Shown one piece after another: positions 16,549 through 31,373 of a stretch of DNA of 55,995 nucleotides; position 1 is the stretch's first letter; every line of letters begins with the position of its first letter. Source of the DNA: Patescibacteria group bacterium (GTDB taxonomy: Bacteria > Patescibacteriota > Patescibacteriia > Buchananbacterales > SURF-54). The stretch lies in the NCBI GenBank assembly GCA_018818885.1, contig JAHIRB010000035.1:1-55995 (forward strand). The letters are read 5' to 3'. The notes under the pieces were generated by a model. It searched no databases. It was given only the letters and a program-made list of their open reading frames with translations, and was not told the DNA's origin. The position numbers and the translations under genes are program-made.

Positions 16549-17469
16549 ATGAATAAAAAGTCAAATAAAAAAGTAATAGTCATTTTAGGTCCAACAGCAT
16601 CTGGTAAAACAAAACTGGCTGTTAAATTAGCCAGCAAGTTTAATGGTGAAATAATTTCCGCAGATTCACGGCAAGTTTATGTTGATATGGATATTGGAAC
16701 AGGAAAAGATTTAGCAGAATATATAGTCAAGGTACAAGGTACAAGGTACAAGGTACCATATCATTTAATTGATGTCGTTTCGCCTAAATCTCAGTTTACG
16801 GTAGGTGTGTATCAAAAATTAGCCAACATAGCTATCCAGGATGTCATAAAACGTCAAAAATTGCCCATTATATGCGGTGGAACTGCTTTTTATATTCAGT
16901 CAATAGTAGATGGTATTGTATTGCCTCCTAAGACTTCAAGTCAGTTACGTCAAAAATTGAATAAGCTGACATTGAAGCAGCTATTAGTTAAATTGAAAAA
17001 ACTTGACTCAGCATCATATCGTCAAATAGACAAAAAGAACAGAAGGCGAGTGCAGCGTGCAGTTGAGGTGTGCTTGTATACAAGTGAAAAATTTTCATCA
17101 TTTGGCCAAAAACAAAAAATAGACTATGAGTTTTTGATCTTAGGATTAACTTGGCCAAGAGAAGTTTTGAAAAAAAGAAGCACCAAGAGACTAAAAGTCA
17201 GGCTTGAAAAAGAAGGTATGATCAATGAGGTTAAAAGATTGCATAAACAAGGAGTCAGTTGGAAAAGAATGGATGAGTTTGGCTTGGAATATCGCTGGGT
17301 TTCTAGATATCTTCAAAAGAAAATCACATATGACGAAATGTTTGAAGGTTTGAATAATGATATTAATAATTTTGCTAAAAGGCAGATGACGTGGTTTAAA
17401 AAAGATAAGAGGATTAAGTGGGTGAAGAATTATAAATCAGCAAAAAAATTAGTAAAGGAATTTTTATAG
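16549..17469 (+). CDS. miaA: tRNA dimethylallyltransferase
   Basis: GPTASGKT, IISADSRQVY, GGTAFY, AKRQMTWF. Confidence 0.97.
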   Translation: MNKKSNKKVIVILGPTASGKTKLAVKLASKFNGEIISADSRQVYVDMDIGTGKDLAEYIVKVQGTRYKVPYHLIDVVSPKSQFTVGVYQKLANIAIQDVIKRQKLPIICGGTAFYIQSIVDGIVLPPKTSSQLRQKLNKLTLKQLLVKLKKLDSASYRQIDKKNRRRVQRAVEVCLYTSEKFSSFGQKQKIDYEFLILGLTWPREVLKKRSTKRLKVRLEKEGMINEVKRLHKQGVSWKRMDEFGLEYRWVSRYLQKKITYDEMFEGLNNDINNFAKRQMTWFKKDKRIKWVKNYKSAKKLVKEFL

Positions 17470-18276
17470 CGGGCTTTTAATTTTTTTAAGCCGAGGATTG
17501 GTTACCTGTGTATATATTTGAGTGGTTCTGATATTTTGATGGCCAAGCAATTCCTGTACGTAGCGCACGTCAACGCCGTTTTCCAACAGGTGAGTGGCAA
17601 AACTATGGCGCAAACTGTGAAAGGTCGCGTTTTTTTTGATGTTTGCTTTTTTTAACGAATTAGCAAACACTTTTTGTGCGGTTCTTTCTGTAAGTTTGCC
17701 CCCACGCTCACTTGAAAAGATATAGTCATTTTTATCTTTTCCAGCAATAAGATTTTGAAGGTCAATTTTTAATTTTTCAGGCATAATGGTAATTCTGTCC
17801 TTTTTTCCCTTAGCTTGCCTGATGTGAATTGTTAGCTCCAAAAGGTCAAGATCTTGTATCTTAAGATTGATAATTTCGCTTACCCTTAAGCCTGATCCAT
17901 AAGCTAAAGATAAAAGCAGTTTATGTTTGTTATTAGTTGTAACTTCAATAATTTTTTTAATTTCATTTCTTGATAAAACAACAGGCAAGAATTTATTTCT
18001 CTTAGCTATTCTTATCTGAATTGGGGTGAAGGATTTGGCGACGTCACGATAATAAAATTTAATCGCATTCAAATAAAGATTCCGCGTCTGGACCGAGATA
18101 GCCTTTTCTTCAGCATAAAGCAGGAAGTTTTTGATATTTTCCTCATCTAATTTTTCTAAGCCACTTTGCTTAAAGGTAAAATATTCTTTTAAGCCATAAA
18201 CATAGCTTTTTATGGTTTTTTGGCTAAAATTGCGTATTTTTAATTCACGCTTTACTTTCTCTAGTTCTTTTTGCAT
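17464..18276 (-). CDS. IntI-like tyrosine recombinase lacking the IntI-specific insertion
   Basis: N-terminal SAM-like domain (RNFSQKTIKSY); catalytic R (GLRVSE), K (KGKKDR), HSLRH, LGH, Y (TTQIY); C-terminal SPL; 3' end overlaps miaA by 6 nt. Confidence 0.93.
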   Translation of the reverse strand: MQKELEKVKRELKIRNFSQKTIKSYVYGLKEYFTFKQSGLEKLDEENIKNFLLYAEEKAISVQTRNLYLNAIKFYYRDVAKSFTPIQIRIAKRNKFLPVVLSRNEIKKIIEVTTNNKHKLLLSLAYGSGLRVSEIINLKIQDLDLLELTIHIRQAKGKKDRITIMPEKLKIDLQNLIAGKDKNDYIFSSERGGKLTERTAQKVFANSLKKANIKKNATFHSLRHSFATHLLENGVDVRYVQELLGHQNIRTTQIYTQVTNPRLKKIKSPL

Positions 18277-29481: not shown

Positions 29482-29678
29482 ACATAACAGCGTGTATCTG
29501 GTTACGGAAAATTGGCGTTAATTAAATCCTTAAGGAATGCCAATTTTCCTCCGCCCAAATTTTCATCCCTTTACAAGATGAGGATTTGGGTGGGGTTCTG
29601 TTAAAAAGTGTCGTCTGATAATCAAAATTTAACCTATTTAATCGGGATGAAAACTTCAGATACACGCGAACGTTATAT
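29482..29678 (+). other. attC-like site 12
   Basis: ACATAAC-A-GCGTGTATCTG ... CAGATACACGC-GAAC-GTTATAT. Confidence 0.88.
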
Positions 29679-29698
29679 GAAATAATAATTTTATTTTT

Positions 29699-30169
29699 AT
29701 GTCAGATAAAATAAACAAATGCCTAGATGATTTAAGATATGCTTATAAATGTAACGTGCCTTTGGGATAAGTACTCGAATCATATAGTTTTTACGCTGAT
29801 CCTAAATATGTCACAATAGAAACTTACAAAAATTTTTGCGTGTTTGTTTATAAAACGGATATTGATAACGAGGGAATTTTAAAAAAAGCTAAAAAATATC
29901 CCGATTACGAAACTTATATAAGTGACAAAAGTAGTTTTGCAAAATTTTTTATTGAACGCGGTCCAAGATTAGATACGCCCAAAAAGAAACGAATTAAAAA
30001 ATATACTACCTATTCAGCGCATGGACATTTCCAAACCAATAATCCTATTTCTGCTTTTTTAAACTTCATAGCGATGTTGCCCGCTTATATATTAATGATG
30101 ACTATCGCCGGAATCGCAAAGATTTTTGTAAGTTTCTTTGACCTGTTCAAATCTAACAAAGAAAAATAA
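29699..30169 (+). pseudogene. cassette 13 gene with in-frame TAA at codon 24
   Basis: ATG 29699 is in frame with ORF 29840; single TAA at 29768-29770, frame otherwise open. Confidence 0.65.
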
Positions 30170-30251
30170 AATTATTACATCGTATAACACGGCGTATACG
30201 ACATTTGTTTATCCACTAAAACCCGGGGGAGTCGTTCGCGAACGGCTTCTC

Positions 30252-30300
30252 TTGACAAAAATAATCAGGCTGATATAATTGTAATACAATGTATTACAAT
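30252..30300 (+). promoter_or_regulatory. TA promoter and operator
   Basis: TTGACA-16-TGnTATAAT followed by palindrome ATTGTAATACA-A-TGTATTACAAT (30278-30300). Confidence 0.85.
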
Positions 30301-30312
30301 TAATCTATTTCT

Positions 30313-30528
30313 ATGAGACAAGTAATTAACATCTCCTTACCTAAACAAACAGCCCATGAAGTCAAATCTGCCGTTAAAAGAGGCAATTATCTCAGCGTCA
30401 GTGAGTTTTTTCGTGATTTATTAAGAGATTGGCAGGCAGGTAATCTTCTTAATGAATTAAACCAAAGTAGAAAAGAAATTAAAGCGGGCAAGGGCAAAAC
30501 CTTAAAATCCTTAAAGGATTTAAGGTAA
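30313..30528 (+). CDS. ribbon-helix-helix antitoxin (ParD/CopG-like)
   Basis: VINISLP...G.Y.SVSEFFRDLLR; upstream of RelE-like toxin. Confidence 0.85.
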   Translation: MRQVINISLPKQTAHEVKSAVKRGNYLSVSEFFRDLLRDWQAGNLLNELNQSRKEIKAGKGKTLKSLKDLR

Positions 30529-30534
30529 TTTTTT

Positions 30535-30792
30535 ATGGAAATTATTTATTCCTCAAAGTTTGCCCGTGAATATAAGAAACTGCCAAAAAAAGTAAAGGCA
30601 ACGGCGGAAGAGCACGAAACAATATTCAGACAGAACCCCCGAGATCCAAGATTAAACACGCACAAACTTCATGGCAGACTTAAAGAATTCTGGTCTTTTT
30701 CAATCGGGAACAAATACCGAATTATTTTTGAATTTGGCAATGACACTACAATTTGCTTGCATTTAGTCGGCAATCATGATATTTACCAATAA
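30535..30792 (+). CDS. RelE-superfamily mRNA interferase toxin (YafQ/YoeB-like)
   Basis: YSSKFAREYKKL, HKLHGRLKEFWSFSI, YRIIF, VGNHDIY. Confidence 0.9.
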   Translation: MEIIYSSKFAREYKKLPKKVKATAEEHETIFRQNPRDPRLNTHKLHGRLKEFWSFSIGNKYRIIFEFGNDTTICLHLVGNHDIYQ

Positions 30793-30908
30793 ACAAACGT
30801 CGCATACGCTGGAACGTTAGGCGAACTTTATATGATCCTGATGTTATGCAATTACATAATTTAACACGAAAAAAGAATTTTTAGAATGTAGATTATAATC
30901 TAGAAATT

Positions 30909-31373
30909 ATGAGCAAAAATAATATGAAAAGTATTATCTTCCCCAAGGTTAAAGAGTGGTTTTTAAGATACATACTCGCAGAAATAGTAGCCATCATAGG
31001 TGCTATGGTGGGAGGTCTATTAGCATATTACTTTTTTAACAACCTTGTTGCTACTGCTCTCGGTGGAACTTGGGGCGAAAATATTGGTTATTATGGACAA
31101 ATAATATATAGTGATTTAAAAAAGAGCAAACAAAAAGACGGAAAAATTACATTTATTATTGTTCTTAAACTTATAAGAAACGCCATTATAGAATTTGGGC
31201 CAGGGGAGTATCTTGATAGCTTTCTTATTCGTCCTATTACCATGTATTTTTTTATAAGCGTAGTTGGTAGTCTTCCTGTTGGGTTATTCCTTGGCAAAAT
31301 AAGTGCTGATGTCATTTTTTATATACCTACAATTACTGCATACGAGTTTCAAAAAAAATACATTAAAGATTAA
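30909..31373 (+). CDS. membrane protein, hypothetical, outside the last attC
   Basis: 154-aa hydrophobic ORF; no downstream R'' site found. Confidence 0.75.
   Translation: MSKNNMKSIIFPKVKEWFLRYILAEIVAIIGAMVGGLLAYYFFNNLVATALGGTWGENIGYYGQIIYSDLKKSKQKDGKITFIIVLKLIRNAIIEFGPGEYLDSFLIRPITMYFFISVVGSLPVGLFLGKISADVIFYIPTITAYEFQKKYIKD

What the first reader, a model, noticed from the sequence alone, without database searches (positions are those of the whole stretch)
30182..30822. Toxin-antitoxin operon forms the loop of the terminal attC
The RHH antitoxin, RelE-like toxin, promoter and operator lie between the arms of attC13, and the toxin stop is part of the right arm. TA cassettes that stabilise integron arrays are established. 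A TA inside the recombination site would instead tie addiction to the site and to whichever cassette owns it. This site lacks the junction motifs, so it may be a second site class.
Basis: partly seen in the sequence, partly recalled or inferred. Interest (0 to 1): 0.62.

Follow-up and report, generated by a model that had tools for sequence, protein, structure and literature searches.

The report
Toxin-antitoxin genes inside a recombination site
A self-contained toxin-antitoxin gene pair sits between the two arms of the last recombination site of an integron-like gene-cassette array in an ultra-small (Patescibacteria) bacterium. The same toxin-plus-inner-arms unit recurs in about 19 other uncultured genomes, joined to different neighbouring genes, so the addiction genes seem to travel with the inner half of the site.

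Summary
R'' (30182-30188) and L'' (30190-30200) on the left face L' (30801-30811) and R' (30816-30822) on the right. They extend to 23-nt arms with 20/23 complementarity. Between the arms lie a perfect sigma-70 promoter, an 11-1-11 palindrome, an RHH antitoxin and a RelE/YoeB-type toxin, whose stop codon lies in the right arm.

The layout is not unique. Seven of the 13 sites in this array hold genes between their arms. Of 74 related TA loci, about 19 lie in attC context and 13-14 are split in the same way.

The reduced form without junction motif and arm B recurs in four other contigs. One of them has the left arm 23/23 and the right arm 21/23 identical, against 81-85% for the genes. It is a trimmed derivative, not a second site class.

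New here: the R''-side flank pairs with its own cassette's 5' end in a locus-specific way (13/20 covarying pairs), while L''-TA-L' is shared. The TA therefore belongs to an exchangeable inner module. TA-bearing sites are imperfect and are the last detectable site in 8 of 12 loci, which fits addiction blocking excision.

This scan has already seen TA-in-attC with hicBA, higBA and Fic on other genomes. I found no published description. Function is untested.

The parts
29672..29698 (+). R' of site 12 (GTTATAT) plus extension. This is the left boundary and 5' inverted-repeat arm of cassette 13.
   Evidence: Half-site scan. It forms a 27-nt, 89% inverted repeat with 30162-30188 (I9). The first 20 nt (29672-29691) match the 20 nt ending in R'' (30169-30188) at 17/20.
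29840..30169 (+). 109-aa cassette gene upstream of the TA-bearing site. Function unknown; C-terminus hydrophobic.
   Evidence: ORF list. No Pfam or NCBIfam hit. No homolog in 40 relatives.
30162..30188 (+). 3' inverted-repeat arm of the upstream gene unit. It ends in R'' (GTATAAC, 30182-30188).
   Evidence: Across 7 loci that share the TA module, this stem covaries locus by locus.
30190..30212 (+). Left 23-nt arm: L'' 11-mer CGGCGTATACG plus extension ACATTTGTTTAT.
   Evidence: Identical 23/23 in metagenome contig L065.
30213..30251 (+). Spacer holding a small GC-rich palindrome (CGTTCGCGAACG) upstream of the promoter. Shared with G356/L042 only.
   Evidence: Alignment A2: 69% identity to L042 and 28% to L065.
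30252..30279 (+). Sigma-70 promoter of the TA operon: TTGACA, 16 nt, TG-extended TATAAT.
   Evidence: 12/12 consensus match. Conserved in the listed relatives.
30278..30300 (+). Putative operator: perfect 11-1-11 palindrome overlapping the -10 box and the start.
   Evidence: Self-match on the minus strand. The TGTAATACAnnGTATTACA core is conserved, with small variations, in nearly all of the ~45 loci printed.
30313..30528 (+). RHH (CopG/ParD-like) antitoxin, 71 aa.
   Evidence: PF01402 2e-6. TIGR02606 5e-6, below cutoff. PDB 6x0a/5ceg antidote proteins. Third-codon-position bias of substitutions.
30535..30792 (+). RelE/StbE-YoeB-type toxin, 85 aa. Its stop codon lies inside the right arm.
   Evidence: TIGR02385 31.8 bits against cutoff 27.9. 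A profile of 29 homologs hits YoeB 6l8e. R62, H81 and Y84 are invariant and E66 nearly so.
30789..30811 (+). Right 23-nt arm: extension ATAAACAAACGT plus L' 11-mer CGCATACGCTG.
   Evidence: 20-21/23 identical in L065, L064 and L042, and also present in L119.
30812..30822 (+). Spacer GAAC and R' core GTTAGGC. The inferred crossover point is G|TT at 30816/30817, the end of cassette 13 and of the array.
   Evidence: Half-site scan. Homology with four relatives stops right after GTTA.

Best explanation
attC13 is a genuine site of this Xer-type, integron-like cassette array, and it is a composite of two units.

1. The outer half, R'' plus about 20 nt upstream, is the 3' inverted repeat of the neighbouring 109-aa gene unit.
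2. The inner half, L''...L', is a separate module. Its interior is a self-regulated RHH/RelE(YoeB-like) toxin-antitoxin operon.

This TA-bearing inner module is an inherited unit spread across Patescibacteria and combined with many different outer gene units. In this lineage the module has lost the junction motif and second hairpin that normal sites have. What remains is a plain 23-bp stem closing a 576-nt loop.

Shown here: the anatomy, the conservation of the arms, the autonomy of the TA operon, the mosaic of outer and inner halves, and purifying selection on both genes.

Inferred:
- On single-stranded DNA, preferentially the bottom strand, the arms pair and present R' (G|TT at 30816) to the 270-aa recombinase.
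- Any excision that removes cassette 13 (29673-30816), or the whole array via attI x attC13, puts the TA on a non-replicating circle. The antitoxin then decays and the mRNA-interferase toxin stops the cell. The TA therefore locks the distal end of the array, as TA cassettes do in Vibrio chromosomal integrons.
- Because excision is lethal, mutations that weaken such sites are tolerated. This explains their imperfect stems, lost parts and drift to the last position.
- Combining one inner module with many outer units requires strand exchange at the R''/L'' border, either by swapping of hairpin tips or by recombination between left half-sites. Classical integron recombination is not known to do this.
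For: Array and site:
- 13 left and 13 right half-sites alternate strictly on the + strand.
- L''/L' 11-mers are site-specific and 11/11 complementary in the other 12 sites, but 9/11 in site 13.
- Both strands fold with the arms paired. The bottom strand is better in the window (-19.9 vs -17.1) and in L065 (-18.6 vs -16.2), because two conserved A.C mismatches become G.T wobbles.

Autonomy of the TA:
- G043 carries the same promoter-operator-A-T module (71% DNA identity, from the -35 box to the stop) between housekeeping-type genes, with no arms.
- The promoter and operator are conserved in nearly all loci printed.
- The toxin family occurs in 81/401 genomes of the class.

Recurrence:
- 13-14 contigs have R''L''-TA-L'R', and all share the L' family CGCATACGC.
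- All 12 tested contigs have a significant inverted repeat hugging the TA, built from four unrelated stem sequences.
- One compensatory change lies in the L stem of L073.

Arm conservation: WIN vs L065 is 23/23 on the left and 21/23 on the right, against 81-85% for the coding sequence and about 32-36% outside the arms.

Mosaic structure:
- At least 8 different upstream genes.
- The R''-side 20 nt pairs with its own cassette's 5' end in 6 of 7 loci at 15-18/20.
- 13/20 pairs change on both sides. 82% of cells are paired, against 62% in shuffles (0/500 reach it) and at most 50% when the partner is slid.

Signs of addiction:
- The TA site is the last detectable site in 8 of 12 loci with at least 1.2 kb downstream.
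- Decay features: AAC changed to AAA in the R'' of L065, GTT changed to GAT in the R' of L083, and the left arm lost in L042, L064, L119 and L022.
- TA cassettes kill on excision in V. cholerae (PMC13108822).
Against: - No experiment supports the reading. Toxicity, operator binding, folding and recombination are all inferred.
- Site 13 lacks the motif and second hairpin kept by the other 12 sites, and it has two L-stem mismatches. It may not recombine at all.
- A 576-nt loop needs long single-stranded DNA.
- Within the TA-site lineage most L-stem changes are uncompensated: about 8, against 1 compensatory.
- L108/L109 carry a left 11-mer that does not match the right one.
- Four contigs have no left arm at all. 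So the minimal conserved unit is the TA plus the right arm, not the hairpin.
- The TA tree interleaves integron and non-integron copies, with at least 4 forced transitions and a poorly resolved backbone. The direction of capture is therefore open.
- The terminal-position count rests on half-site HMMs built from this window and on short flanks.
Confidence: 0.6

Rival explanations
1. Dead relic. A TA operon landed in, or replaced, the middle of the array's last attC and destroyed it. The arms are leftovers that no longer fold or recombine, and the TA is just a chromosomal TA next to a fossil site.
For: Site 13 is the only site of 13 without the CACCCAAATTT motif and second hairpin, and the only one with an imperfect 11-mer stem, 9/11. 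The closest relatives show further decay: L065 has R'' AAC changed to AAA, and L042, L064 and L119 have no left arm. L077 and L096 keep only remnants.
Against: The arms are better conserved than the genes over 15-19% gene divergence (23/23 and 21/23), and homology ends exactly at the arm edges. Every split locus keeps a stem hugging the TA, although the stem sequence differs between clades. The bottom-strand wobble pattern is conserved in WIN and L065. The same inner module is joined in register to many self-consistent outer units, which implies repeated precise recombination at the site.
Confidence: 0.2
2. Module system like the pdif modules of Acinetobacter plasmids, acting on double-stranded DNA. 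Each half-site would be a complete Xer-type site, genes would sit in modules bounded by inverted sites, and the TA would be one such module moved by ordinary Xer recombination. No hairpin would be needed.
For: The recombinase scores as Xer-type: NF040815 225 bits against a cutoff of 220, and XerC/XerD models at about 184 bits. The array reads as alternating R-bounded and L-bounded modules, each with its own inverted ends. This resembles the alternating C and D dif modules of Acinetobacter plasmids, which include TA modules (PMC13141974, PMC6449649). The forms with the TA flanked by two direct right half-sites (L042, L064, L119, L022) look like a simple integration through one double-stranded site.
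Against: Left and right half-sites are not the same site inverted. The spacer between the R and L boxes is 1 nt on the left and 4 nt on the right, too short and too unequal for a 6-8-nt Xer central region. The 11-mers differ from site to site yet are perfectly complementary within each pair. This is what pairing requires and what a protein-binding arm would not allow. Recombination between inverted double-stranded sites would invert the segment, not move it.
Confidence: 0.12
3. Two unrelated half-sites. The left arm would be what is left of the 109-aa gene's own attC, and the right arm the attC of an ordinary TA cassette, so nothing sits 'inside' a site.
For: In four contigs the TA follows an ordinary R' boundary and has only a right arm. 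In L108/L109 the left and right 11-mers do not match.
Against: The left and right arms are 20/23 complementary in both WIN and L065, and 8-10/11 in nearly all the other split loci. No L'' follows the TA in any locus. The left L'' is the same in loci with different upstream genes.
Confidence: 0.03

Closest known systems
Toxin-antitoxin cassettes of sedentary chromosomal integrons (Vibrio cholerae superintegron; Richard et al. 2024, PMC13108822)
   Same: A type II TA with its own promoter is embedded in a cassette array. The expected effect is death of cells that excise it, which stabilises the array.
   Different: In Vibrio the TA is the cargo of an ordinary cassette and is followed by a compact attC. 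Here the TA lies between the arms of the site and shares its inner arms across genomes. The recombinase also lacks the IntI insertion. The killing effect is not tested here.
Classical attC sites with a large variable terminal structure (VCRs; known length 57-141 bp, PMC5371416)
   Same: Inverted R''/R' (RYYYAAC/GTTRRRY-type) and L''/L' boxes, an unequal spacer, a better-folding bottom strand, and a variable central part.
   Different: The site is 641 bp from R'' to R', with a complete operon in the central part. The L boxes are 11-mers. The partner enzyme is a 270-aa Xer-like recombinase.
dif (pdif) modules of Acinetobacter plasmids, including TA modules (PMC13141974, PMC6449649)
   Same: Gene modules bounded by inverted recombinase-site halves. 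There are two alternating module kinds, TA modules are among them, and modules are reshuffled between contexts.
   Different: pdif sites are 28-bp XerC-6-XerD sites with conserved arms that act as double-stranded DNA. Here the spacers are 1 and 4 nt, and the arms are module-specific and self-complementary.
Other TA-in-attC cases noted by this scan (hicBA, higBA, Fic/FicA in other Patescibacteria genomes)
   Same: The same layout: a promoter-bearing TA between the halves of an integron-type site in CPR bacteria.
   Different: A different TA family (RHH + RelE/YoeB-like). This case is the reduced two-way hairpin variant. It adds the outer/inner mosaic evidence and the terminal-position trend. 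Those notes are unchecked AI notes and I did not test them.

Membership tests
Integron attC site (classical definition) | Inverted core sites R'' (RYYYAAC) and R' (GTTRRRY) at the two ends | tested here: met
   GTATAAC at 30182-30188 and GTTAGGC at 30816-30822. The same boxes occur in all 13 sites.
Integron attC site (classical definition) | Internal L''/L' pairing that gives an imperfect hairpin with an unpaired spacer | tested here: met
   11-mers pair 9/11 and extend to 20/23. The spacers are unequal, A against GAAC. The fold z-scores are -4.1 (top strand) and -4.8 (bottom strand).
Integron attC site (classical definition) | Length of about 57-141 bp with a non-coding central part (PMC5371416) | tested here: not met
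   641 bp from R'' to R'. The central part encodes two proteins plus a promoter.
Integron attC site (classical definition) | Partner integrase of the IntI family with its specific extra domain | tested here: not met
   The 270-aa recombinase at 17464-18276 scores 223 bits on TIGR02249, below the 265 cutoff and split into 2 stretches. It passes NF040815 (XerA/integron-integrase type) at 225 against 220.
Integron attC site (classical definition) | Recombination as folded single (bottom) strand at G|TT of R' | not testable with these tools
   Only indirect evidence. Homology with relatives ends right after GTTA, and the bottom strand folds 2.4-2.8 kcal/mol better.
Type II toxin-antitoxin system, RelE/StbE-YoeB toxin with RHH antitoxin | Toxin matches the family model above its curated cutoff | tested here: met
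   TIGR02385 31.8 bits against 27.9. The profile hits YoeB 6l8e. R62, H81 and Y84 are invariant and E66 nearly so.
Type II toxin-antitoxin system, RelE/StbE-YoeB toxin with RHH antitoxin | Small DNA-binding antitoxin gene immediately upstream in one operon | tested here: met
   RHH_1 28 bits against 20.5. There is a 6-nt gap between the genes. The pair is conserved in 74 distinct loci.
Type II toxin-antitoxin system, RelE/StbE-YoeB toxin with RHH antitoxin | Own promoter with a palindromic operator (autoregulation) | tested here: inconclusive
   A 12/12 promoter and a perfect 11-1-11 palindrome are present and conserved across the family. Binding and repression were not tested.
Type II toxin-antitoxin system, RelE/StbE-YoeB toxin with RHH antitoxin | Toxicity that is neutralised by the antitoxin | not testable with these tools
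   Only purifying selection was seen. Third-position changes make up 21/32 (antitoxin) and 32/48 (toxin) of the differences from L065.
TA gene cassette of a chromosomal integron (Vibrio type) | The TA is the cargo between one R' boundary and its own complete attC downstream | tested here: not met
   No L'' follows the TA. The left arm lies upstream of the promoter.
pdif / dif module | Module flanked by inverted 28-bp XerC-6 nt-XerD sites with conserved arms | tested here: not met
   The spacers are 1 and 4 nt. The L 11-mers are different in almost every site and complementary within pairs.

The most novel reading that the evidence does not exclude
Integron-type sites in these bacteria may have a second, inner level of mobility. 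The hairpin tip (L''...cargo...L') would be exchanged between sites by strand exchange at the R''/L'' border, for instance by a completed two-strand exchange between two folded sites. Toxin-antitoxin operons would ride these tips as 'addictive tips' that hop from cassette to cassette, freeze whichever cassette they land in, and end up as the fixed last site of the array.
Probability: 0.3. Interest if true: 0.8.

Novelty: new variant of a known kind. Interest (0 to 1): 0.6.

Why it matters
TA cassettes are known to police cassette loss in large chromosomal integrons. In those systems they are ordinary cargo.

Here the addiction genes are part of the recombination site itself. More precisely, they belong to its inner half, which is shared between genomes while the outer half changes with the neighbouring gene.

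If the reading is right, three things follow.

1. attC-type sites can be several times longer than the accepted 57-141 bp and can carry genes. Current integron finders, which cap attC length and require the IntI domain, would then miss a whole class of arrays in Patescibacteria.
2. There is a testable second level of gene exchange, in which inner modules are swapped at the R''/L'' border.
3. Addiction would leave a readable evolutionary signature on recombination sites: decay of the site and drift to the array end.

All three can be tested with standard E. coli toxicity and suicide-conjugation assays.

Tried and rejected
- Simple regular-expression scans for the half-sites were too noisy or too strict. 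I replaced them with nhmmer profiles built from the repeat families.
- I considered inverted cassettes as the cause of the alternating half-sites. This is rejected because the left and right types differ consistently in spacer (A against AAAC) and all lie on the + strand.
- I tested whether the 154-aa ORF after the site is a 14th cassette. It is accessory (found in 1 of 40 relatives), and its only homolog (G027) has no half-sites nearby. So site 13 is the last recognisable site. A weak left-arm-like string at 30851-30873 remains unexplained.
- I looked for the 109-aa upstream gene elsewhere with another site and found none in 40 relatives.
- I tried to decide whether the split form or the 'R'-TA-L'R'' form is ancestral in the window's clade. 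The three left junctions differ (L064, L042, L119). L065 (split) is sister to L064 (not split). I therefore favour repeated loss of the left arm, but the exact crossover does not fit a clean G|TT exchange, being one T off in L064.
- The TA tree could not settle whether there was one capture or several, because the backbone is unresolved.
- A direct PDB sequence search with the toxin found nothing. Only the profile search did.
- No structure prediction was run, because the family assignment did not need it.
Full report
**Setting**

The window is low-GC DNA (about 34%) from a 1.35-Mb, 98.6%-complete genome whose relatives are Patescibacteria: Falkow-, Komeili-, Magasanik-, Buchanan- and Parcubacteria. 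A 270-aa tyrosine recombinase lies at 17464-18276 on the minus strand. It carries Phage_integrase and SAM-like domains. It passes the XerA/integron-integrase model NF040815 (225 bits against 220) but not the IntI model TIGR02249 (223 against 265, split in two). Downstream of it is a cassette array on the + strand. Profile scans with the two repeat families found 13 left half-sites (R''-A-L'') and 13 right half-sites (L'-AAAC-R'). All are on the + strand and alternate strictly. None occurs elsewhere in the 56 kb at a comparable score.

**The observation**

- Left arm: R'' GTATAAC 30182-30188, spacer A, L'' CGGCGTATACG 30190-30200, extension ACATTTGTTTAT to 30212.
- Right arm: ATAAACAAACGT 30789-30800, L' CGCATACGCTG 30801-30811, spacer GAAC, R' GTTAGGC 30816-30822.

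The 23-nt arms match at 20/23, and the three mismatches are all transitions. The toxin stop TAA (30790-30792) lies in the right arm.

Between the arms are four elements:
- a 12/12 sigma-70 promoter with an extended -10 box (30252-30279);
- a perfect 11-1-11 palindrome (30278-30300);
- an RHH antitoxin (30313-30528; PF01402 above cutoff);
- an 85-aa toxin (30535-30792).

The toxin passes the RelE/StbE model. As a 29-sequence profile it hits YoeB structures. R62, H81 and Y84 are invariant and E66 nearly so, a pattern I recall as YoeB-like. That recollection is my own knowledge and was not tested.

The arms alone fold at -17.1 kcal/mol (top strand) and -19.9 (bottom strand), against about -9.1 +/- 2 for shuffles (0/200). 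They also pair in the fold of the whole 666 nt on both strands.

**Not a one-off in this array**

Six of the 13 sites are compact, with 56-157 nt between the 11-mers. Seven (sites 1, 5, 7, 9, 10, 11 and 13) have 406-1005 nt between the 11-mers, with ORFs inside. One of these ORFs is a trypsin-like peptidase; the rest are unknown. Each site has its own 11-mer. In the other 12 sites the two 11-mers are perfectly complementary, allowing one bulge in site 2 and spacers of 3 or 5 nt in sites 3 and 11. Only site 13 is imperfect, at 9/11. Site 13 is also the only one that lacks the CACCCAAATTT-type motif and the second small hairpin between cargo and L'.

**The TA operon is autonomous**

G043 has the same module at 71% DNA identity. 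The match starts at the -35 box and ends at the stop codon. It lies between a glycoside-hydrolase gene and a zinc-ribbon gene, with no half-sites. The toxin family occurs in 81 of 401 sampled genomes of the class, and 390 proteins match at E <= 1e-25 in the large protein collection. In nearly all of the ~45 loci printed, the TTGACA promoter and the TGTAATACAnnGTATTACA palindrome are conserved, while the flanks are otherwise unrelated. Substitutions between the window and its nearest relatives are concentrated at third codon positions (for L065, 21 of 32 in the antitoxin and 32 of 48 in the toxin). Both genes are therefore under purifying selection.

**The TA-in-site layout recurs**

I scanned genome, metagenome and assembly loci for half-sites. 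Of 74 distinct TA loci, about 19 lie in attC context.
- 13-14 are split like the window, R''L''-TA-L'R': WIN, L065, L073, L074, L083, L048, L081, L088, L049, L050, L095, L108/109, L110 and L111.
- Four have the TA directly after the R' of a complete compact site and followed by a lone right arm: L042 (G356, Falkowbacteria), L064 (the same as L120, Buchananbacteria), L119 and L022 (G166).
- Two keep only remnants: L077 and L096.

All share the L' family CGCATACGC.

In most clades the TA sits in a full three-armed site, in this order: L'', a stem such as (G/C)TTAGAGAAATACCC, the TA, the complementary stem, GCAAATT, a second hairpin, then L'R'. All 12 split loci tested have a significant inverted repeat hugging the TA. 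It is built from four unrelated sequences, so the stem is conserved as a structure and not as a sequence.

**The reduced form is a small clade, not a new class**

The form with the stop codon fused to ACAAAC-NNC-L' occurs in WIN, L065, L064/L120, L042 and L119. In the tree, which did not include L119, WIN, L065, L064 and L042 group together with one non-integron row, L072 (support 97/90). L065 has both arms. Against L065, identity is as follows:
- left 23-mer: 23/23;
- right 23-mer: 21/23;
- antitoxin CDS: 85%;
- toxin CDS: 81%;
- just outside the arms: 32-36%.

Two A.C mismatches are shared by WIN and L065 and become G.T wobbles on the bottom strand, which folds 2.4-2.8 kcal/mol better in both. 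L074 is an independent reduced form with a different stem. I therefore read attC13 as a trimmed derivative of the ordinary three-armed site. It has the same boxes and spacers, and compact sites with the same 11-mers exist in G011 and G057.

**Which part owns the TA?**

The upstream gene differs in every locus:
- a 109-aa unknown protein here;
- a 207-aa protein in L065;
- a GDSL-like hydrolase, by eye, in L048;
- an 86-aa ORF in L049;
- a thioredoxin-like protein plus a permease, by eye, in L050;
- a NUDIX-like protein, by eye, in L108;
- others.

L'' CCGCGTATGCG is shared by seven loci, but their R'' boxes have four different sequences. In the seven loci with a preceding R', I compared the 20 nt ending in R'' with the first 20 nt of that same cassette. 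They are inverted repeats: 15-18/20 in six loci and 11/20 in L110.

Counted formally on the seven loci:
- 82% of cells pair, against 62 +/- 3% in shuffles (0/500 reach the observed value) and at most 50% when the partner is slid;
- 13 of 20 pairs change on both sides;
- two positions are unpaired in all seven loci.

The outer half of the site therefore belongs to the neighbouring gene unit, and L''...TA...L' is a separate shared module. Classical integron recombination crosses over only at G|TT of R' and would keep a gene and its whole attC together. The observed mosaic needs exchange at the R''/L'' border. Two routes could do this. One is a completed two-strand exchange between two folded sites, which swaps hairpin tips. 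The other is recombination between two left half-sites, which deletes what lies between them and keeps the TA. Both are inferences.

**Signs of addiction**

- TA-bearing sites carry 1-3 uncompensated L-stem mismatches in most loci, whereas the window's other sites have none.
- Some have degenerate cores: AAC changed to AAA in L065 and GTT changed to GAT in L083.
- Some have lost the junction parts or the whole left arm.
- In 8 of 12 loci with at least 1.2 kb of downstream flank, the TA site is the last detectable site. In L065 it is followed by what look, by eye, like rpsF-ssb-rpsR. In L048 it is the only site, next to the recombinase gene.

A cassette whose excision kills the cell cannot be lost. 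Its site can decay without cost, and as other cassettes turn over it ends up at the distal end. This matches what was shown experimentally for TA cassettes in V. cholerae (PMC13108822). Here it is inference only, and the count depends on HMMs built from this window.

**Rivals**

- Relic reading. It fits the missing parts and the mismatches. It does not explain arms that are conserved better than the genes, or the in-register joining to many outer units.
- pdif-like double-strand module reading. It fits the Xer-type enzyme and the alternating module pattern, and TA dif modules exist (PMC13141974, PMC6449649). However, the R-L spacers are 1 and 4 nt, and the 11-mers are module-specific and self-complementary, which points to pairing and not protein-sequence recognition.
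- 'Two unrelated half-sites'. This is refuted by arm complementarity.

**Literature and earlier notes**

Full-text searches found no description of integron-type arrays with genes inside attC sites in Patescibacteria. The accepted attC length is 57-141 bp (PMC5371416). This scan's own earlier notes report the same array's insertion-less integrase, three-armed sites and inner gene slots. They also report TA operons of other families (hicBA, higBA, Fic) inside attC-type sites in other Patescibacteria genomes. So the layout has been seen before in this scan on other DNA. Those notes are unchecked leads.

**Limits**

No wet-lab data exist for any of this. Several contigs are short. Gene names given 'by eye' were not run through a family search.

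Noticed in passing
window 30851-30873: ATTACATAATTTAACACGAAAAA, 30 nt after the last R', is 78% like the start of a left arm (ATTACATC-R''-AC). It could be the stump of a 14th site. No right-arm partner was found before pyrF.
   Followed up: partly
window 30909-31373: The 154-aa membrane ORF between the array end and pyrF is accessory. Only 1 of 40 relatives (G027) has a homolog, and there it lies next to what looks like a glutamate-dehydrogenase gene with no half-sites.
   Followed up: yes
L120:1932-3646; L042:3004-4104; L050:3047-4057: Fic-domain genes lie just downstream of the TA-bearing site in three unrelated contigs. The Pfam Fic assignment for L120 comes from the tool; the other two are by eye. 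In L050 the gene ends in a lone right half-site.
   Followed up: no
alignment A4 columns 10-11 / 34-35 (window 29681-29682 with 30178-30179): In the stems that close the outer gene units, two positions (GAAAT against ACATC) are unpaired in all 7 loci. This is a conserved internal mismatch next to the R boxes.
   Followed up: no
L119:1060-1083 and 2121-2144: The same 24-nt left arm (ACTTCGTCTAACAGCGCCTATGCG) occurs twice in one array, 1 kb apart, once just upstream of the TA. This looks like a duplicated compact site.
   Followed up: no
G000:C50:6431-6682 and G000:C45:21608-21859: The genome has two more paralogs of the toxin (48% and 34% identity). Neither has half-sites nearby.
   Followed up: partly
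L''-adjacent bases of most sites, e.g. window 29501-29512 (GTTACGGAAAAT); L050 GTTAGAAAAAAT: Directly after L'', most sites carry a string that resembles the R' box plus its GAAAT tail. In L064 an ordinary R' (GTTATACGACATTTG) aligns with the window's L''-plus-extension (GTATACGACATTTG). This hints that the L''-side can act as a pseudo-R'.
   Followed up: partly
L084/L052 downstream of the toxin: A non-integron copy of the TA is followed by a terminator-like hairpin, AAAATACCCCCGCC-GAAG-GCGGGGGTATTTT. Its stem resembles the AAATACCCGC / GCGGGTATTT stems that hug the TA inside sites in other clades. This could be a coincidence or a trace of origin.
   Followed up: no
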